A stretch of DNA of 20,000 nt from an uncultured virus (IMG/VR IMGVR_UViG_3300042887_003526) (taxonomy: Duplodnaviria > Heunggongvirae > Uroviricota > Caudoviricetes), in the IMG/VR virus record IMGVR_UViG_3300042887_003526; one strand, given 5' to 3'. Under the pieces are notes generated by a model. That model searched no databases. It was not told the DNA's origin and saw only the letters and a program-made list of their open reading frames with translations. Position 1 is the stretch's first letter. Each line of letters begins with the position of its first letter. Shown here one piece after another: positions 220 to 7,609 of the stretch. A program made the translations under genes and the position numbers.

Positions 220-651
220 ATGGCATACAAGACTAAATACATACCTAATAATCCCACAAAATATATAGGTAATATTAATTCAATTTTATGCCGTTCTCTC
301 TGGGAAAGAAGATTTTGTAAGTATCTGGATAGCAACAAAAATATAGTAAGATGGGCATTTGAGGCAATACGAATACCTTATGTTTCTCCGATGGACAATA
401 AAGTCCATTTTTATATTCCAGATTTCCTTATAGAAGCAAAAAACAAAGACGGAATAGTTGAAACTATGTTAATAGAAATAAAACCCCTAAAGCAAACAAA
501 ACAACCAGAACACAATAAAAAACACAAAAAAACAATATTAATGGAAAATATGACATATGCAATAAATACTGCAAAGTGGGAAGCAGCAAAAAATTATTGC
601 ACCGAAAAGGGAATAATATTCAAAATTTTAACAGAACAGGATCTATTCTAA
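220..651 (+). CDS. gp4: Head completion nuclease (T4 gp4 family, PD-(D/E)xK fold)
   Basis: P.NP.KY.G, RSLWE..FC..LD, W..E...IPY.SP.D.K.H.Y.PDF, IEIKP..QT..P, N.AKWEAA and F.ILTE are characteristic gp4 motifs. Confidence 0.92.
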   Translation: MAYKTKYIPNNPTKYIGNINSILCRSLWERRFCKYLDSNKNIVRWAFEAIRIPYVSPMDNKVHFYIPDFLIEAKNKDGIVETMLIEIKPLKQTKQPEHNKKHKKTILMENMTYAINTAKWEAAKNYCTEKGIIFKILTEQDLF

Positions 652-652
652 A

Positions 653-1306
653 ATGTCAAATATTAATCTTCCAGATTATCAAGCAACCACTATTACTCAG
701 TTTAGAAATGCTGTAATTGCAAGAAAAGGAATTCAGCAACCCGGAAAATATGCAGTTCAGATGGTAGATGGTAAATTGAATAGTTTATCGTGCTATCCAG
801 AATCGGTAACTTTGCCTCAAAGATCATTTAGTACTGCACCATATAGTCCGTGGGGGCCAATTTTACAATTACCAGTTAGAAGAGAATATGGTGAATGTGC
901 AATGTCCTTTATAATTTATCAGGACTGGGCAGAAAGAAGGTTTTTTGAAAACTGGATGGATACCATTATTCCACCAAAATCAACAGAAGATGCTGATCCA
1001 GTTGGGGTGAGTGCTTTGGAGCGATTGGGTGGTCCCTCTGTGGGTAATATATTTGATGTTTTAGCTGGTACAAGTAGAACAATAAGAACAACACAGTATT
1101 CAGATTACTCTAATGGTTTTAATACCTTTACAGGAACTGTTAAAATATATCCTCTTGCGGTAGAAAATCAAGCACAACAAACATGCACCATTACATTGAA
1201 AAATGCATTCCCCCTGACCATAACACCAACACAAATGTCTTCTGAAGCGACAGGATATGCTACATTTGTTGTAATTTTTGCATTCAAAGAATATGAATTT
1301 ATTTAA
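653..1306 (+). CDS. Baseplate-tail tube junction / tail-tube-like protein (gp54/gp19 fold)
   Basis: ESVTLPQRSFST, R.FFENWMD.I, LKNAFP..I and F.V.FAF.EY motifs; lies between gp4 and gp26. Confidence 0.7.
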   Translation: MSNINLPDYQATTITQFRNAVIARKGIQQPGKYAVQMVDGKLNSLSCYPESVTLPQRSFSTAPYSPWGPILQLPVRREYGECAMSFIIYQDWAERRFFENWMDTIIPPKSTEDADPVGVSALERLGGPSVGNIFDVLAGTSRTIRTTQYSDYSNGFNTFTGTVKIYPLAVENQAQQTCTITLKNAFPLTITPTQMSSEATGYATFVVIFAFKEYEFI

Positions 1307-1317
1307 TTGGAGATATT

Positions 1318-2022
1318 ATGAAATTAGTTGACTTATTAGGAAATAGACCGAAATACTCAGAAACTGTACCATCAACAAACAAAAAAATATGGTTTAGACC
1401 GTTTTTAGTTAAAGATGAAAAAACTTTATTAATGGTACAGGAAACCGGAAAAGAAAAAGAAATATTAATGGCAGTCAAAGAATTAGTAGAGTCCTGCTTT
1501 GAATTAAAAGACGCAGGAAGTATACCAATATTTGATTTAGAATATTTGTTTTTAAAACTAAGATCAAAATCGGTAGGAGAAATTGTTGAACCTTTTCTGG
1601 TTTGTCCGCATACAAATGAAAAGATCAAACTGGTAATTGATTTGGATAAGATTAAAGTTAAAACCTTCAAATCCCATACGAATAAATTAAAATTAGATGA
1701 TGATTTGTTTGTTTGTATGAAATATCCATCACTTAATATGTTTATAGAAAACGAAACATCTGATATGTCTCTTATGGATTTTTACGATCTTGCAGTATCG
1801 TGTGTTGATTATATCGAAACACCAACGGAACGAATAGAATGCGAAAACAAGAATAAAGAAGAGATAAAAGAATTCGTAGACAATATGTCAAAGGTTCAAT
1901 TTGACAAAATAATTGAATTTTTTGCAACAATGCCAAGAATTGAACAAGAAATGCCATATACGACAAGTGATGGAGTAGAAAGAAAGGTAGTGTTACGAGG
2001 TATTCGTGATTTTTTCGGATAA
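1318..2022 (+). CDS. gp26: Baseplate hub assembly protein (gp26 family)
   Basis: P.Y....PST.K.I.FRPFLVK.EK.LL, FDLEYLFL.LRSKSVGE, MKYPS, FF.TMP and C-terminal G..DFF; GGAG SD. Confidence 0.9.
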   Translation: MKLVDLLGNRPKYSETVPSTNKKIWFRPFLVKDEKTLLMVQETGKEKEILMAVKELVESCFELKDAGSIPIFDLEYLFLKLRSKSVGEIVEPFLVCPHTNEKIKLVIDLDKIKVKTFKSHTNKLKLDDDLFVCMKYPSLNMFIENETSDMSLMDFYDLAVSCVDYIETPTERIECENKNKEEIKEFVDNMSKVQFDKIIEFFATMPRIEQEMPYTTSDGVERKVVLRGIRDFFG

Positions 2023-2234
2023 GCCTCAGCCACAATAGTCTCAATACCTATTTTGATTTAACATTCAAAATGATACACATGTATAACTACTCATTGACGG
2101 AATTAGAATCAATGATACCTTGGGAAAGAGACATTTATGTGGAATCGCTGAGGCAGCATATAGAAGAAGAAAATCTAAGACTTATGAACAAGCAGAACAT
2201 GATGAGGGCAATGAACAGCAGAAGAGGAAGATAA
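2010..2234 (+). CDS. gp51: gp51-like baseplate hub assembly protein; first ATG at 2070, frame open from 2010 (probable -1 frameshift extension of gp26)
   Basis: Not in the ORF track. Translation FFRISLSHNSLNTYFDLTFKMIHMYNYSLTELESMIPWERDIYVESLRQHIEEEN...RRGR*. YSLTE.E.M.PWER..Y is the motif of phage proteins annotated gp51. Confidence 0.82.
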   Translation, partial: FFRISLSHNSLNTYFDLTFKMIHMYNYSLTELESMIPWERDIYVESLRQHIEEENLRLMNKQNMMRAMNSRRGR

Positions 2235-3932
2235 ATGAAAGAAAAAAATTTACCAAAACTTAAAAAAGAAATTCTTAAACTATTTGGAAGTTCTCTTTCA
2301 TTGTCCTCTAATGTGAGTCTTCCGTCTAATGTTATACTTCCTACTGACACAGAAACTGCTCCATTACCAAATGGTACAGGAACTGCAACAGAAAAACCAG
2401 AAGATATCAATATAACAATTGCTTTACCTCAAGATAAAAAGACGAGAAATTACAAGAAAACTGTAAAATCTCTGAAAAATAACAAATCGTATAATATTGA
2501 TATAAAAAAAAATGATATACCGCTTCAACTGTATTTCAATAATTCATACGAAGACCATGTTACACCGGAATTAGTAAAACCTGTAAATTTTATTAATTAC
2601 GGAATCAATAGAATTCAAAATACGAATATAAATTCACCACAATTTAACGAAAGCAAAGTAGTAAACAAAAACAATACTACAGAGGTTTCAAATGTTAAAA
2701 ATAATTTTATAAAAGAATATGTTAAAATTATTGAAAATTACAAATCTAATACAAAACCAAATCAAAATTTTATTCAAAAAGAAAATAAAGTTTTAAATAA
2801 TTTCTTCATAAAACCATATACGTTTTTAACAAATAGCGATGATGTGATATTGCGGACAGAAAATAATATCACTAACAATTCCAATATTACAAACCAAAGT
2901 AATCCGGTTACCAACAGTATCATCACAAACCAAAGTAATCCGGTTACCAACAACAGTGCCATTACAAACCAAAGTAATCCGGTTACCAACAGTATTATTA
3001 CAAACCAAAGTAATCCGGTTACCAACAACAGTGCCATTACAAACCAAAGTAATCCGGTTACCAACAGTATTATTACAAACCAAAGTAATCCGGTTACCAA
3101 CAGTATTATTACAAACCAAAGTAATCCGGTTACCAACAACAGTATCATCACGAACCAAAGTAATCCGGTTACCAATAATAGTATCATCACGAACCAAAGT
3201 AATGCGGTTACCAATAATAGTATCATCACGAACCAAACCAATCCAATTACCAACAATAATACTAGAATTGAAAAAAATACAGTAAACAAAACAAATGCAA
3301 TAGTTCAAGATGTTTCAAACAACAATGCATTTATTGATAATAATGTGACTTTTTTCAAGGAACCAAAATACTTTGACTTATCGTCTGAAATTAATCAACC
3401 AATAATAAACAGATTTAGTTCTATTAAAAATGTTTTACAGCATAGAACAATATCAAATTATCTACAATCCAATAATGTTACAAATGTTCCTGCATTTGAA
3501 TCTGGTGGTATAGTCTCAAAACCAACATTGGCAATGATTGGCGAAAAAGAACCAGAAGTAATAATACCAAAAAGTATTCTTCCAAATCTACTTACAAGTT
3601 CAGATAATAGTCCTATGGAAAAAACAAAAATCAATAGAAAAATTAATTCTTTTATTGACCAAGGAAACATATCATCTCTTCCTGCACTCAAATCAATAGA
3701 TCAAAACAATAAAACAAAGAATCTATTAGAAGTAGAAAAGGAAGAAATAGAACACATGAGGACTATTAGAAACGCCGATAAAAAACAACCAAAACCAACG
3801 GCAGTTTCAAACGAACTTCAAAGCCCAGAAGAAACCATACTTGGCGTAGAAAAAATAACATCCACTAGAGGAATAAAACAATTTGCTCCGCCATTGAATG
3901 GACTTCCTTCGTGGAGACAAAGTACAGTATAA
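2235..3932 (+). CDS. Asn-rich tail protein with internal tandem repeats and a tape-measure-associated motif (gp29-like position)
   Basis: 565 aa, directly after gp51. AFESGGIVSKPTLAMIGEKEPEVIIP (3492-3569) matches the A.GG.V..PT.A..GE.GPE.V.P motif common in tape-measure/tail proteins. Confidence 0.55.
   Translation: MKEKNLPKLKKEILKLFGSSLSLSSNVSLPSNVILPTDTETAPLPNGTGTATEKPEDINITIALPQDKKTRNYKKTVKSLKNNKSYNIDIKKNDIPLQLYFNNSYEDHVTPELVKPVNFINYGINRIQNTNINSPQFNESKVVNKNNTTEVSNVKNNFIKEYVKIIENYKSNTKPNQNFIQKENKVLNNFFIKPYTFLTNSDDVILRTENNITNNSNITNQSNPVTNSIITNQSNPVTNNSAITNQSNPVTNSIITNQSNPVTNNSAITNQSNPVTNSIITNQSNPVTNSIITNQSNPVTNNSIITNQSNPVTNNSIITNQSNAVTNNSIITNQTNPITNNNTRIEKNTVNKTNAIVQDVSNNNAFIDNNVTFFKEPKYFDLSSEINQPIINRFSSIKNVLQHRTISNYLQSNNVTNVPAFESGGIVSKPTLAMIGEKEPEVIIPKSILPNLLTSSDNSPMEKTKINRKINSFIDQGNISSLPALKSIDQNNKTKNLLEVEKEEIEHMRTIRNADKKQPKPTAVSNELQSPEETILGVEKITSTRGIKQFAPPLNGLPSWRQSTV
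2880..3257 (+). repeat. In-frame tandem repeat: 10 units of 36/39 nt encoding S(I/A/N)ITNQSNPVTN(N)
   Basis: Unit lengths 12,13,12,13,12,12,13,13,13,13 aa = 378 nt; core aaccaaagtaatccggttaccaa recurs with no unique spacers. Confidence 0.95.
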
Positions 3933-4009: not shown

Positions 4010-4909
4010 TCAGTCTTCAGCAAGCTTCTTGAAATAATCAAGAGCATCTGTCTCTTCGTCCACCTGATCCTCAACTGGCGGCTTTGAGCGGATAGAAGGC
4101 TTCTTCTCCTTCATATCCTCTTCATCGATATCCTCAGCAGTACGAGTAGATCCCGTACCACTTCCACGGATATCCCCACGAAGAACATCAAACAACTTCT
4201 GCTTTAGTTCGTCATAGGACTTGAAATTAGTCGGATCAACAAAACTCTTAAGAGCATGTTGTGACTTCCAAACAGTCTCCAACTTAACATCCTCGCCATT
4301 TAGAAGCGGAGATGACGAATCAAATTCTGACTTGTCATAATTGACAAATCCACCAACCTGACGAATCTTCAACTTGAAATTTGCACCATTCCAGAAATTG
4401 AACGGATCAAGTGGATCCTCGTCCTTGAACTCCGGTTGCATCGCTTCCTGAATCTTTTCAAAGATCTTTTGACCATACTTGAACAGGAAAACCTTTCCTT
4501 CATTTGACGGTTCAGCAGGATCGCTGACAACGTAAATGTTGGAAATATAATTGAGCTTCCTCTTTCGCTGACGAGCAAGATCCTTATCGCTATCAATACC
4601 ACTATTCCATAGTTGGGTATTCATCTCGGAAACTGGATCCTTCTGACCAAGAGTGGTTAGACAATTTTCGATATACCAACCGCCTGGGCCTTGGAAAGCA
4701 TGGGAATACAACTTAACCCAAGGAATGTCCTCTCCCTCAATTGCCGGCAGGAAACGAATTACTGCAAAACCATTCTTTGCGTTGTCGAGCTTTGGACGCC
4801 AAAAACGATCATCCTTGTAATCATTCTTGGTATTATCTTGTTGGATCTTTTGAACCAACTGATCGATGCTTGACTTCGACTTCTTCTTAAAATCGCTAAA
4901 TGAACCCAT
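4010..4909 (-). CDS. gp32: Single-stranded DNA-binding protein (T4 gp32 family)
   Basis: DDRFW.P..D...NG.AVIRFLP, H.FQGPGGWYIENCLTTLG..DPV, NEGKVFL.KYG.KIF.KI, PF.FW.GANFKLK, NYD.SEF, acidic C-terminal tail. Confidence 0.97.
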   Translation of the reverse strand: MGSFSDFKKKSKSSIDQLVQKIQQDNTKNDYKDDRFWRPKLDNAKNGFAVIRFLPAIEGEDIPWVKLYSHAFQGPGGWYIENCLTTLGQKDPVSEMNTQLWNSGIDSDKDLARQRKRKLNYISNIYVVSDPAEPSNEGKVFLFKYGQKIFEKIQEAMQPEFKDEDPLDPFNFWNGANFKLKIRQVGGFVNYDKSEFDSSSPLLNGEDVKLETVWKSQHALKSFVDPTNFKSYDELKQKLFDVLRGDIRGSGTGSTRTAEDIDEEDMKEKKPSIRSKPPVEDQVDEETDALDYFKKLAED

Positions 4910-5313: not shown

Positions 5314-6582
5314 ATGCCAGATACAGGATCAAATATTCTTATAACGACCAATGACAATACAGCAGTTATTGCAACAGACTATGGAACAAGCGGAACTGGT
5401 TTTACTGGAGCCCATGTTCAAATTTTTAAATTATCTTATGGTACAGATAGCACCACCCAACGAGTAGGTACGTCTGCACCGCTTCCCGTATCAATTTACG
5501 GAGTAACTGGAGCGACTTTACCAATAAGTGGTTCTGTCTCCGGTTCCGGTAATTTTAATGTAGTCAATTCCTCTTCTACGGGAAGTTACCTATTGGTCGG
5601 TGGTTCTACATGGGCAACGGTTCCTGTTGGCATTAGCGGAACTATCCAAGGTGTTAGTGGAGGATATCCAGTAGGTATTACCGGAACAGTAAGCATTGCA
5701 AATTCAGGTATAGCAATATATGGAATATCTGGCGCAACTGCTGTAGGTGTAACCGGAGGCAGAAGATTATCATATTCTAGCGATTCCGTTACAGTCTATG
5801 GAAATGTAGGAATAAGCGGGGGACTCGGTTTGGTTGCAGCAACCGATAGCATTGCAGTATATGGTTCTGATCTCGGAGGAAAGGTTCTGACTAGACTATA
5901 CTCCTCAGACGGAACAACATTAGGTGTATCGGGTGATGCACTAAAGGTAGCAATAACCAATGCAGGAATATCCTTCGGCGTAACAATAGCAGCAAGTGTT
6001 GGTATTACTAATGATGGTGTAGTTGGTCTGATGATTCGTGGTACAGGAAATACCGCATCTCATCCAGTAATTGTTAAAGGTACACTAGCAAGCGGCGCAA
6101 TTGAAGTTACCGCTACTAGCAATTTGCCAGTTGCTGTTCAAAATACCGTCACAATAGATGATACCGATCTAATTGATTCATTGGAATCTACATCTAAACC
6201 CATAGTTTCAAATCTGAGTAGCATCAAGACAAATACAAACGTCATTTCTACCATCAATGATAAACTCAGCAATGGAACCGTACAATCTAAGATTACTGAA
6301 ATTGTAAGACCGGGTGTTGTTACTAGTGGTAAGAAGTCAGTAACAGAAACTCCAGTTTCCTTAACAACAGCATCAATTAGTGCAAAGGTAGGAGTACATG
6401 TAAAATGTCCAACTACAAACACCAGTACAGTTTATATTGGTGGAAGAAATATACTCACATCACAAGCAGATGGATATCCACTTGATGCCGGCGAATCTAT
6501 CTTTATAGAATGTGACTTGGTATCAAGAATTTTTGCCCGATCAGAGAAAGGTACACAAATAGTACATTTCATAACATCATAA
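5314..6582 (+). CDS. Gly/Ser/Thr/Val-rich probable virion structural (fibre/decoration) protein
   Basis: Repeated (P/A)V(G/S)I(S/T)G and G(V/I)(T/S)G motifs; C-terminal beta domain GV.VK....N...VYIG......GY.L..GES; AAGGA SD; TATATATA at 5288-5295. Confidence 0.55.
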   Translation: MPDTGSNILITTNDNTAVIATDYGTSGTGFTGAHVQIFKLSYGTDSTTQRVGTSAPLPVSIYGVTGATLPISGSVSGSGNFNVVNSSSTGSYLLVGGSTWATVPVGISGTIQGVSGGYPVGITGTVSIANSGIAIYGISGATAVGVTGGRRLSYSSDSVTVYGNVGISGGLGLVAATDSIAVYGSDLGGKVLTRLYSSDGTTLGVSGDALKVAITNAGISFGVTIAASVGITNDGVVGLMIRGTGNTASHPVIVKGTLASGAIEVTATSNLPVAVQNTVTIDDTDLIDSLESTSKPIVSNLSSIKTNTNVISTINDKLSNGTVQSKITEIVRPGVVTSGKKSVTETPVSLTTASISAKVGVHVKCPTTNTSTVYIGGRNILTSQADGYPLDAGESIFIECDLVSRIFARSEKGTQIVHFITS

Positions 6583-6583
6583 A

Positions 6584-7609
6584 ATGGCAAATTCGAACTA
6601 TTCTAGATCAAGATCCACTAAACAAAAACAAGGCAAGAATTTAGTTCTTGCTAGAAGTGGTCTATTATATGGTCTTACTTATGTAAAGGTAAAAGAAGAA
6701 AAGATAAGTTCAAACAGAGGAATCACATCCACACCTAATTTTTTGTTTTACGACAATAACACAAAGGTGATGATTGATTTTTCTGATTATAATAATACCA
6801 CCAGTGCAGATGAATTGTATTCTTTTTGGAATCTGATAATAGATGGAATGACCTTCACAATCACAGATGGTGAGTTAATCAATCCCGCAAACAAACAACA
6901 ATATGATGTTTCAGGAACATATACATTCACATCAATTGAAAATTTAGTAGTATTTGCCGATGTTGTTTCGGTTGAAAGTATCTCAACAGGAATTCATTTA
7001 TACAATAAAAACGATTTTTCAAATCTACCGACATTTACTTTAGCTACAATAATAGAACCAGAAAAAACAACACCACTAACATCTATAGTTAATAGCTTAG
7101 GAAAGAATACTAAAAACTCTTTTAATTTTCTTGGAATAAAAGTTGGAGATTATGTTCAGTTACAATCCAAACAAAATAAATTTGAAATTGTAGATTATTC
7201 CCTAGATAGCGAAGGCAAAGAAGTAATAACAGTTTTCGGGGAGATAGCAGAAGAAGATAGAATATCTACTAAAACTTTTATTGGATTATATGTGGAAAAG
7301 AAAAACGAAAATACTGTTAGTGTTGATATAACCGATGAAAAAATAGGAGCATGTGAAGTTTTAGAAAATAATATTGTAATATCTTGCACAAGTAATAATA
7401 CAGCATCACAATGTGAATTAAGATCAACCACATCTCTTACTGCTAGATTCACAGAATCGAAAGCATGTACTACTGCAATAGAGGAAGAACAAACATCAAC
7501 TGATTTGTTATCAACTATTATAGATCAACAAAATACATTAATATCTAAAATGGATAGCAGAGTTCAAACCATATCTACTGCAAATTTCCAAAACATGCCG
7601 TTTAGATAA
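6584..7609 (+). CDS. Hypothetical protein, probably late/structural
   Basis: 341-aa ORF starting 1 nt after the upstream stop; no family recognised. Confidence 0.6.
   Translation: MANSNYSRSRSTKQKQGKNLVLARSGLLYGLTYVKVKEEKISSNRGITSTPNFLFYDNNTKVMIDFSDYNNTTSADELYSFWNLIIDGMTFTITDGELINPANKQQYDVSGTYTFTSIENLVVFADVVSVESISTGIHLYNKNDFSNLPTFTLATIIEPEKTTPLTSIVNSLGKNTKNSFNFLGIKVGDYVQLQSKQNKFEIVDYSLDSEGKEVITVFGEIAEEDRISTKTFIGLYVEKKNENTVSVDITDEKIGACEVLENNIVISCTSNNTASQCELRSTTSLTARFTESKACTTAIEEEQTSTDLLSTIIDQQNTLISKMDSRVQTISTANFQNMPFR

What the first reader, a model, noticed from the sequence alone, without database searches (positions are those of the whole stretch)
2005..2234. Probable programmed -1 frameshift fusing gp26 to gp51 (lambda G/GT-like tail chaperone arrangement)
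Seen: gp26 ends CGT GAT TTT TTC GGA TAA. Positions 2010-2016 are T TTT TTC, an X XXY YYZ slippery heptamer in the correct phase. The -1 frame has a TGA at 2007-2009, opens exactly at the heptamer and runs to 2234 as the gp51-like sequence. Its first ATG (2070) has no SD, and SHNSL..Y...F upstream of that ATG looks like part of the conserved gp51 region. Known: many tailed phages use a -1 frameshift in tail assembly chaperones (lambda G/GT) just upstream of the tape-measure gene. Here the next gene carries a tape-measure-type motif. Inference: products are gp26 (234 aa) and a ~305-aa gp26-gp51 fusion, so 'gp51' is not an independent gene. I do not recall this being described for T4-like phages.
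Basis: partly seen in the sequence, partly recalled or inferred. Interest (0 to 1): 0.85.

Follow-up and report, generated by a model that had tools for sequence, protein, structure and literature searches.

The report
Frameshift in T4-like hub chaperone gene
One tail-assembly gene of this uncultured freshwater T4-like phage very probably makes a 234-residue and a 305-residue protein because some ribosomes slip back one base on a strictly conserved TTTTTTC, doing with one gene what phage T4 does with its two genes 26 and 51.

Summary
gp26 (1318-2022) ends CGT GAT TTT TTC GGA TAA, T TTT TTC (2010-2016) is in phase, and the -1 frame is closed by TGA 2007-2009 and open to 2231.

- All 96 complete related loci (90 unique) plus 4 further annotated phages keep an in-phase T TTT TTN. 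The codon before it always ends in T, across four amino acids.
- The gp51 homology starts at the heptamer, not at a start codon, and the first start codon wanders from 1 to 61 codons downstream.
- T4 gp51 (249 aa) is colinear with the predicted fusion across the junction. T4 gp26 ends at the junction.
- Seven phages with a separate full-length gp51 all lack the heptamer.
- A GAGG lies 9-10 nt upstream. Many relatives have a downstream hairpin, but this window's clade does not.
- The gene sits between a tube-family gene and a tape-measure-like gene. Its N-terminal domain weakly resembles the HK97 tail assembly chaperone.

Ten full-text searches found no report, and a 2016 review lists T4 as the exception to G/GT frameshifting. 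This scan has already noted the same thing on 8 other genomes. No protein-level evidence exists yet.

The parts
653..1306 (+). tail-tube-family gene directly upstream of gp26
   Evidence: phrog_45 'tail tube' E 8.2e-20. The same upstream neighbour is annotated as tail tube in HTVC008M, ValKK3, phiM12 and DSL-LC03.
1318..2022 (+). gp26-family gene; zero-frame product of 234 aa (the short, G-like form)
   Evidence: PF12322 T4_baseplate E 1.8e-57, residues 11-233 on profile 2-218/219. phrog_150 E 8.7e-59. AlphaFold2 model with mean pLDDT 86.5.
1997..2000 (+). SD-like GAGG 9 nt upstream of the heptamer; candidate upstream stimulator (inferred)
   Evidence: An SD-like 4-mer lies at -18..-5 in 89 of 90 unique junctions. 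The Glu codon at this place is GAG 62: GAA 13, against 619: 1444 elsewhere in the same genes.
2007..2009 (+). TGA that closes the -1 frame just before the heptamer
   Evidence: Read directly. In relatives the -1 frame opens 0-93 nt before the heptamer and that part is not conserved.
2010..2016 (+). slippery heptamer T TTT TTC in zero-frame phase
   Evidence: in phase in 96 of 96 complete loci (90 unique). The preceding codon is always NNT, the first Phe codon is TTT in 90 of 90, and the second is TTC 85 / TTT 3 / TTA 2.
2020..2022 (+). gp26 stop codon, one codon after the heptamer
   Evidence: The stop lies 3 nt after the heptamer in 86 of 90 unique junctions, 0 nt in 2 and 24 nt in 2.
2016..2234 (+). 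-1-frame extension (72 codons plus stop), the gp51-like, T-like part of the 305-aa fusion
   Evidence: phrog_634 score rises from 50.1 bits (from ATG 2070) to 73.7 bits when read from 2010. It aligns to T4 gp51 residues 200-237. Invariant F1, F2, L11 and F19 lie upstream of the ATG.
2070..2234 (+). 54-aa ORF from the first ATG, the form usually annotated as 'gp51 baseplate hub assembly catalyst'
   Evidence: No SD-like motif in the 20 nt upstream.
2235..3932 (+). 565-aa candidate tape measure protein with a 9.8-copy 39-nt tandem repeat at 2886-3256
   Evidence: The C-terminal 210 aa give weak matches to six PHROG tape-measure families, E 4.2e-5 to 0.03, each near the C-terminal end of the profile. 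Tandem repeat.

Best explanation
Gene 26 of this freshwater T4-like phage is decoded in two ways. Most ribosomes read it to TAA 2020-2022 and make the 234-aa gp26. A minority slip back one base on U UUU UUC (2010-2016), read on from CGG 2016-2018 in the -1 frame, and make a 305-aa gp26-gp51 fusion. The so-called gp51 is therefore mainly the C-terminal extension of a long form of gp26.

The pair corresponds to T4 gp26 (short) and T4 gp51 (long). T4 encodes these as two separate paralogous genes.

By position (tube gene, then chaperone, then tape-measure-like gene) and by a weak fold match, the pair is the T4-superfamily counterpart of the lambda G/GT tail assembly chaperones. The shared part would hold the tape measure or hub, and the extension would recruit another tail or hub part.

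What is shown:
- the signal, its conservation, and the colinearity with T4 gp51.

What is inferred:
- that slippage occurs on the ribosome, and how efficient it is;
- the stimulatory role of the upstream GAGG and of the adjacent stop;
- the binding partners.
For: (1) Signal. The heptamer is in phase and the -1 frame is open from it.

(2) Conservation at synonymous sites.
- 96 of 96 complete loci (90 unique junctions) keep NNT TTT TTN.
- The preceding codon is AGT 41, TCT 27, GAT 15, GCT 5 or AAT 2. That is four amino acids, always with T in the third place.
- The first Phe codon is TTT in 90 of 90, against 738 of 1009 elsewhere in the same genes.
- phiM12, Melnitz, DSL-LC03 and ACG-2014d also have the heptamer, 4 of 4. 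So do P-SSM2, HTVC008M and the Vibrio phage ValKK3.

(3) Coding starts at the heptamer.
- The PHROG gp51 score is 73.7 bits read from 2010 against 50.1 bits from the ATG.
- tblastn alignments begin at query residue 1 in 118 of the 120 listed rows.
- In the 19 of 88 unique junctions whose first start codon is at least 10 codons downstream, the first 18 codons in the -1 frame show 0.49 mean identity and 0 of 19 have stops. The other two frames show 0.28 and 0.23, with stops in 19 of 19 and 17 of 19.
- The first start codon lies 1 to 61 codons after the slip site. L014/L015 have none until 11 codons before the end.
- Several GenBank records annotate no gp51 CDS at all.

(4) T4.
- gp51 matches phrog_150 (the gp26 family) over residues 3-248 and phrog_634 over 147-246. 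gp26 stops at profile position 235 of 282.
- PF12322 covers gp51 residues 1-201.
- A profile of 91 in-script fusions aligns to gp51 as one stretch, positions 24-283 on residues 16-245, E 1.2e-11. It aligns to gp26 at positions 11-239 on residues 4-207. The junction is at about position 238.

(5) Natural control. Seven phages with a separate full-length gp51 keep the RGL..F motif but 0 of 7 have the heptamer. T4 reads GAG TTC TTT GAG.

(6) Stimulators.
- GAGG lies 9-10 nt upstream, with GAG strongly preferred over GAA.
- The stop is one codon after the heptamer in 86 of 90 junctions.
- The 42 nt that begin 3 nt after the heptamer (stop codon included) fold to a mean of -9.06 kcal/mol, against -4.37 for windows of the same genes. 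45% of loci fall in their own lowest 5%.

(7) Context and fold.
- Tube-family gene upstream and tape-measure-like gene downstream.
- gp26 residues 1-96 match the HK97 tail assembly chaperone 2ob9 (Z 6.9, rmsd 3.9, 83 aligned). They also match 3fgx (Z 7.2) and 3klu (Z 6.6).
Against: - There is no direct evidence: no peptide, reporter or ribosome profile.
- FF is also an invariant protein motif of gp26, so part of the T-run is explained by the protein.
- In-phase heptamers are common by chance here, 43 in 4,793 codons.
- The window's own clade has no downstream hairpin: -1.7 kcal/mol against -3.25 background. RNAalifold finds no consensus structure. The best single register pairs only 51.8% of cells.
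- In 44 of 88 unique junctions a start codon lies within 3 codons after the slip site. There, a separately initiated or re-initiated small gp51 lacking only a few residues is also possible, and it may coexist with the fusion.
- The loci are a biased sample: 13 from a close-relative scan plus the best 80 of 593 confirmed candidates. The P of about 1e-32 assumes independence that related sequences do not have.
- The fold match is below Z 8, which the tool calls common. Foldseek found nothing.
- The window's record is a 29.5-kb fragment rated 15% complete, so a separate full-length gp51 elsewhere in this genome is not excluded.
Confidence: 0.85

Rival explanations
1. The same gp26-gp51 fusion is made, but by transcriptional slippage. 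RNA polymerase adds one U on the T6 run, so a minority of mRNAs carry the fusion in one frame.
For: The site is a homopolymer run, T6 here and T7-T8 in HTVC008M, L016, L042 and phiM12. Conservation of T in the preceding codon also lengthens the run. Nothing in my data separates the RNA level from the ribosome level.
Against: If run length were the selected feature, the second Phe codon should be TTT, which is the commoner codon in these genes (73%). It is TTC in 85 of 90 junctions, which caps the run at six. From my own knowledge, not from a call, known productive slippage sites are mostly 7-9 or more A or T. An SD-like GAGG at 9-10 nt and a stop one codon downstream are features of ribosomal signals. 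One metatranscriptome contig of a 94%-identical relative crosses 1982-2227 without an indel. However, contigs drop rare variants and the library may hold DNA, so this is nearly uninformative.
Confidence: 0.07
2. There is no recoding. gp51 is an independent small protein (54 aa from ATG 2070 here), made by its own initiation or by re-initiation after gp26 terminates. The T-run only reflects the conserved FF end of gp26 in an AT-rich genome.
For: This is how public records annotate it. In 44 of 88 unique junctions a start codon lies within 3 codons of the slip site. About half of the long ORFs in this window lack an SD-like motif, so a missing SD does not exclude initiation. FF is an invariant protein motif.
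Against: It does not explain several results.
- Amino-acid conservation and freedom from stops in the -1 frame upstream of late start codons.
- The invariant F1, F2, L11 and F19 upstream of the window's ATG.
- Lineages with no usable start codon, L014/L015.
- The T always kept in the third place of a variable preceding codon, and TTT in 90 of 90 junctions.
- The loss of the heptamer, with the protein motif retained, in 7 of 7 phages that have a separate gp51.
- The colinearity of T4 gp51 with the fusion.
Confidence: 0.05
3. The long form exists in T4 but was lost in this lineage. The -1 ORF is a decaying remnant of a former fusion and has no function.
For: No expression data at the protein level.
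Against: The -1 ORF is intact in 96 of 96 complete loci and 4 of 4 further phages, across Kyanoviridae, Schizotequatrovirus and Emdodecavirus. Variation is concentrated at third codon positions: entropy 0.97, 0.68 and 1.36 for codon positions 1, 2 and 3. A remnant would not be kept like this.
Confidence: 0.02

Closest known systems
Lambda gpG/gpGT and the conserved -1 frameshift of tail assembly chaperone genes in long-tailed phages (Xu, Hendrix and Duda 2004, known to me only as cited in Atkins et al. 2016, PMC5009743, passages read)
   Same: Two overlapping ORFs lie between the tube gene and the tape-measure gene. [quoted passage not shown] The products are a short form and a long form that share their N-terminal part. 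The N-terminal domain weakly matches the HK97 tail assembly chaperone fold (2ob9, Z 6.9).
   Different: There is no detectable sequence similarity to G/GT families. The protein belongs to PF12322 (T4_baseplate). It has about 140 more residues after the chaperone-like domain. The stop follows the heptamer by one codon, and an SD-like GAGG lies 9-10 nt upstream. Binding to tape measure and tube is not shown. The 2016 review states that this frameshifting is conserved among long-tailed phages 'except T4'.
Phage T4 gp26 (208 aa) and gp51 (249 aa), 'hub assembly chaperones' (Leiman et al. 2010, PMC3004832, passages read)
   Same: Same families: PF12322, phrog_150 and phrog_634. T4 gp26 ends at the junction position, and T4 gp51 runs through it and carries the homologue of the -1 extension.
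   Different: T4 makes the two forms from two separate, divergently transcribed paralogous genes. In RB16 and KP13MC5-1 the two genes are in tandem. T4 has no slippery heptamer: GAG TTC TTT GAG. Here, one gene plus a frameshift does the job.
   Same: A homopolymeric heptamer with an SD-like GAGG 9-10 nt upstream. Many relatives have a hairpin starting about 5-6 nt downstream.
   Different: The hairpin is absent in the window's clade, differs in register between clades, and has no consensus. Here the frameshift extends the protein, whereas in dnaX it truncates it. The stimulatory role is untested.

Membership tests
G/GT-type tail assembly chaperone frameshift | Two overlapping ORFs, the second in the -1 frame, placed between the tail tube gene and the tape measure gene | tested here: met
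   Tube family at 653-1306 (phrog_45), then gp26, then the -1 ORF, then ORF 2235-3932. The tape-measure identity of the last ORF is weak. In HTVC008M, Melnitz and phiM12 one small gene lies between gp51 and the tape measure.
G/GT-type tail assembly chaperone frameshift | [quoted passage not shown] | tested here: met
   T TTT TTC at 2010-2016. Kept in 96 of 96 complete loci (90 unique) and 4 of 4 further phages. Absent in 0 of 7 controls with a separate gp51.
G/GT-type tail assembly chaperone frameshift | Tail assembly chaperone fold of the shared part | tested here: inconclusive
   Model residues 1-96 give Z 7.2 (3fgx), 6.9 (2ob9, HK97 tail assembly chaperone) and 6.6 (3klu). The next unrelated row is at Z 5.3, and the tool warns that Z under 8 is common. 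Foldseek gave no match, and there is no sequence-profile link to PDB chains.
G/GT-type tail assembly chaperone frameshift | Both products made at a low fixed ratio and both required; neither present in the virion | not testable with these tools
   Needs protein work. For T4, Leiman et al. 2010 state that gp51 is required for assembly, is essential, and is absent from the particle.
G/GT-type tail assembly chaperone frameshift | Shared part binds the tape measure; the extension binds the tube protein | not testable with these tools
PF12322 T4_baseplate / phrog_150 (gp26 family) | Full-length match above the curated cut-off | tested here: met
   195 bits against a cut-off of 24.5, residues 11-233 on profile 2-218/219. 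phrog_150 E 8.7e-59.
phrog_634 (gp51, 'baseplate hub assembly catalyst') | Match of the -1 ORF to the family profile | tested here: met
   E 2.7e-20, residues 2-65 on profile 56-119/121 when read from 2010. E 6e-13 when read from ATG 2070.
dnaX-type three-part -1 frameshift signal | SD-like element about 10 nt upstream of the heptamer | tested here: met
   GAGG at 1997-2000, 9 nt before 2010. Found in 89 of 90 junctions. GAG is preferred 62:13, against 30% GAG elsewhere. The function is inferred.
dnaX-type three-part -1 frameshift signal | Stable hairpin a few nt downstream of the heptamer | tested here: not met
   Window clade: -1.7 kcal/mol against -3.25 background. The feature is met in many relatives, with 45% of loci in their own lowest 5%. 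There is no common register.

The most novel reading that the evidence does not exclude
gp26 and gp51 are the long-missing G/GT tail assembly chaperones of the whole T4 superfamily. The ancestral state is one gene with a -1 frameshift, as still found in cyanophages, pelagiphages, KVP40-like vibriophages and phiM12. The T4 lineage duplicated the gene and hard-wired the fusion into a second gene (51), after which the slippery site decayed. That would explain why T4 was the one reported exception to the tail-chaperone frameshift. It would also give the 'essential protein of unknown function' gp51 a concrete role: a low-copy long chaperone that couples the tape measure gp29 and hub to the next assembly partner. 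The signal would be a three-part one (GAGG at 9-10 nt, U UUU UUC, adjacent stop), with a hairpin added in some clades.
Probability: 0.55. Interest if true: 0.8.

Novelty: new member of a known kind. Interest (0 to 1): 0.72.

Why it matters
The -1 frameshift in tail assembly chaperone genes is one of the most conserved recoding events in phages. T4 is cited as its exception (Atkins et al. 2016). This locus and its relatives suggest that the T4 superfamily follows the rule after all.

Most of its environmental members appear to use a frameshift, while T4 itself uses two paralogous genes. This gives a testable function to T4 gp26 and gp51, whose roles in hub assembly have been unclear for decades (Leiman et al. 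2010).

It also corrects the annotation of 'gp51' in up to 535 public phage records that hold this small gp51. I checked the junction in 7 of them. The gene is currently called from arbitrary start codons or not called at all.

Finally, it offers a natural experiment on how a frameshift can be replaced by gene duplication.

Tried and rejected
- RNAalifold on 87 junctions gave no consensus structure. A single stem register imposed on all pairs only 51.8% of cells. So I do not claim one conserved hairpin.
- Foldseek against the PDB gave no match with E <= 0.001 for the gp26 model. A sequence profile against PDB chains gave nothing relevant.
- Complex prediction of the tube-family protein (A4) with the -1 extension (A5) returned 'no answer', score 0.00. 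This is no evidence either way.
- BLASTP of ORF 2235-3932 against T4 gp29 and against the first 373 residues of the HTVC008M tape measure found no similarity.
- hmmsearch with default filters missed T4 gp51 with my fusion profile. It was found with --max.
- Reads: only contigs were served. Three RNA libraries hold parts of the stretch, and one contig of a 94%-identical relative crosses the junction without an indel. Contigs cannot show rare slippage products or prove transcription.
- The record holding the window is a 29.5-kb fragment, so 'only one PF12322 gene' there says nothing about the whole genome.
- The Xu, Hendrix and Duda 2004 paper could not be opened.
- Ten full-text searches and passages of nine papers found no description of a gp26/gp51 frameshift. 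Subscription journals are not covered.

Full report
**The observation**

The window encodes a 234-aa protein at 1318-2022. It ends CGT GAT TTT TTC GGA TAA. T TTT TTC at 2010-2016 is an X XXY YYZ heptamer in the zero-frame phase. The -1 frame carries TGA at 2007-2009 and is then open from 2010 to 2231. It has no ATG, GTG or TTG before ATG 2070. A simultaneous slip on the heptamer would give 233 zero-frame residues plus 72 residues in the -1 frame, 305 in all.

The heptamer by itself is not remarkable. The 23 long ORFs of this AT-rich window hold 43 in-phase heptamers in 4,793 codons.

**What the two ORFs are**

The first ORF is a full-length member of PF12322 (T4_baseplate, 195 bits) and of phrog_150, the gp26 family. 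The 54-aa ORF from ATG 2070 matches phrog_634, 'baseplate hub assembly catalyst' (gp51), with 50.1 bits. Read from 2010, the match grows to 73.7 bits and covers profile positions 56-119. So the homology runs 20 codons upstream of the only start codon, up to the heptamer.

**Comparison of junctions**

I fetched 13 close and 80 more distant loci from IMG/VR. The 80 are the best of 593 confirmed candidates, so this is a biased sample. I added three annotated phages: P-SSM2, HTVC008M and Vibrio phage ValKK3.

- In all 96 complete loci (90 unique junctions) gp26 ends with an in-phase NNT TTT TTN.
- The codon before the two Phe codons is AGT (41), TCT (27), GAT (15), GCT (5) or AAT (2). That is four amino acids and two serine codon families, always with T in the third place.
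- The first Phe codon is TTT in 90 of 90, against 73% elsewhere in the same genes.
- The second is TTC in 85, TTT in 3 and TTA in 2.
- The stop follows one codon later in 86 of 90.
- Four more annotated phages, including the distant Sinorhizobium phage phiM12 and a Methylophilales phage, show the same.
- tblastn with the 74-aa -1 translation finds 535 phage records, from hosts such as Synechococcus, Prochlorococcus, Vibrio, Sinorhizobium and Pelagibacter. In 118 of the 120 rows I saw, the alignment starts at query residue 1, that is, at the heptamer.

**Independent initiation does not fit**

- The first start codon of the -1 ORF lies 1, 3, 6, 8, 12, 14, 18, 19, 26 or 61 codons after the slip site, depending on the lineage.
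- L014/L015 have none until 11 codons before the end.
- In the 19 of 88 unique junctions with a late start, the 18 codons after the slip site have 0.49 mean pairwise identity in the -1 frame and no stops. The other two frames show 0.28 and 0.23, with stops in 19 of 19 and 17 of 19.
- Four of the seven invariant columns of the extension (F1, F2, L11, F19) lie upstream of the window's ATG.
- Annotators disagree on the start or omit the gene entirely, as in DSL-LC03 and ACG-2014d.

In 44 of 88 junctions, however, a start codon lies within three codons of the slip site. There, a separately made small gp51 cannot be excluded and may coexist with the fusion.

**T4 gives the key**

T4 genes 26 and 51 are divergent neighbours.

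- T4 gp51 (249 aa) matches the gp26 family phrog_150 over residues 3-248 and the small-gp51 family phrog_634 over 147-246. T4 gp26 (208 aa) stops at profile position 235 of 282.
- PF12322 covers gp51 residues 1-201.
- The two T4 proteins are paralogues (BLASTP E 2e-6).
- gp51 residues 200-237 align with residues 2-40 of the window's -1 ORF.
- A profile built in a script from 91 predicted fusions aligns to gp51 as one uninterrupted stretch, positions 24-283 on residues 16-245, E 1.2e-11. It aligns to gp26 at positions 11-239 on residues 4-207. The frameshift junction is at about position 238.

So T4 gp26 equals the short product and T4 gp51 equals the long one.

**A natural control**

T4 gp51 tblastn finds 1,380 records, and 1,375 of them have the protein in one frame. 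They come from Escherichia, Klebsiella, Acinetobacter, Aeromonas and similar hosts. In seven such phages (T4, RB49, 44RR2.8t.2, Octan, RB16, Pm5461, KP13MC5-1) gp26 still ends with the RGL..F motif, but none has an in-phase slippery heptamer. T4 reads GAG TTC TTT GAG. The protein motif therefore does not force the T-run. The T-run goes with the one-gene arrangement.

**Possible stimulators**

- GAGG lies 9 nt (window, 1997-2000) to 10 nt upstream of the heptamer.
- An SD-like 4-mer is present in 89 of 90 junctions.
- The Glu codon there is GAG 62: GAA 13, against 30% GAG elsewhere.
- In many cyanophage-like relatives a hairpin starts 5-6 nt after the heptamer. The 42 nt that begin 3 nt after the heptamer fold to a mean of -9.06 kcal/mol, against -4.37 for other windows of the same genes.
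- The register of that hairpin differs between clades.

These roles are inferred.

**Context**

Upstream lies a tube-family gene. Downstream lies a 565-aa ORF with a 9.8-copy 39-nt repeat. Its C-terminal part weakly matches six tape-measure families.

An AlphaFold2 model of gp26 (pLDDT 86.5) has an N-terminal domain whose best structural matches include the HK97 tail assembly chaperone (2ob9, Z 6.9). The others are 3fgx (Z 7.2) and 3klu (Z 6.6). This is suggestive only.

One GenBank record (Acinetobacter phage Octan) already names gp26, gp51 and gp28 'tape measure protein assembly chaperone'.

**Rivals**

- Transcriptional slippage would give the same fusion. The preference for TTC, which caps the run at six, argues against it but does not exclude it.
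- Pure independent initiation and a decaying remnant are each contradicted by several results above.

**Literature**

Ten searches and passages of nine papers gave no report of this frameshift. Atkins et al. 2016 state that G-T frameshifting is conserved among long-tailed phages 'except T4'. Leiman et al. [quoted passage not shown] Earlier notes of this scan describe the same signal on 8 other genomes. I tested their claims again on this window.

**Limits**

- No protein-level evidence.
- A biased sample of related sequences that are not independent of each other.
- Weak fold and tape-measure matches.
- The window's record is a fragment.

Noticed in passing
window 2886-3256 (inside ORF 2235-3932): A 39-nt unit is repeated 9.8 times (88% matches). 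It encodes ITNQSNPVTN(N)S-type repeats inside the candidate tape measure protein. Copy number could vary between strains and change tail length.
   Followed up: partly
window 220-651 (+): A 143-aa protein with a TnsA-like endonuclease N-terminal domain (PF08722, E 2.2e-21). It also matches phrog_218 'head closure' at E 1.1e-50, so a nuclease fold sits in a head-completion-type gene.
   Followed up: no
window 4010-4909 (-): A gp32-type single-strand DNA binding protein (phrog_224, E 1.2e-113) lies directly after the tail genes on the opposite strand. The two long ORFs at 5314-6582 and 6584-7609 have no PHROG match.
   Followed up: no
L106 (RB16) 1601-2894 and L108 (KP13MC5-1) 1601-2895: In these phages genes 51 and 26 lie in tandem on one strand (order 54-51-26-25). 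In T4 they are divergent. The tandem order looks like a trace of the duplication.
   Followed up: partly
L098 (DSL-LC03), L101 (ACG-2014d); rows H78, H82, H84-88, H94, H99, H101, H105-106, H112, H123: Many GenBank records annotate no gp51 CDS at all after gp26, although the -1 ORF is intact. Others start it at different codons.
   Followed up: partly
window 2008-2035 and 2112-2140: Contigs of diverged relatives in lake metagenomes and metatranscriptomes match the window only at these two short pieces. One is the slip site with the next 19 nt, and the other is the PWERD-coding part. These are the most conserved nucleotides of the region. All runs that hold the stretch are labelled lake or freshwater.
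   Followed up: partly
L014/L015 1875-1908 and L022 1884-1917: In these loci the zero-frame stop is 24 nt after the heptamer instead of 3 nt, because TTG or TCA replaces the stop. The heptamer and the -1 ORF are unchanged.
   Followed up: partly
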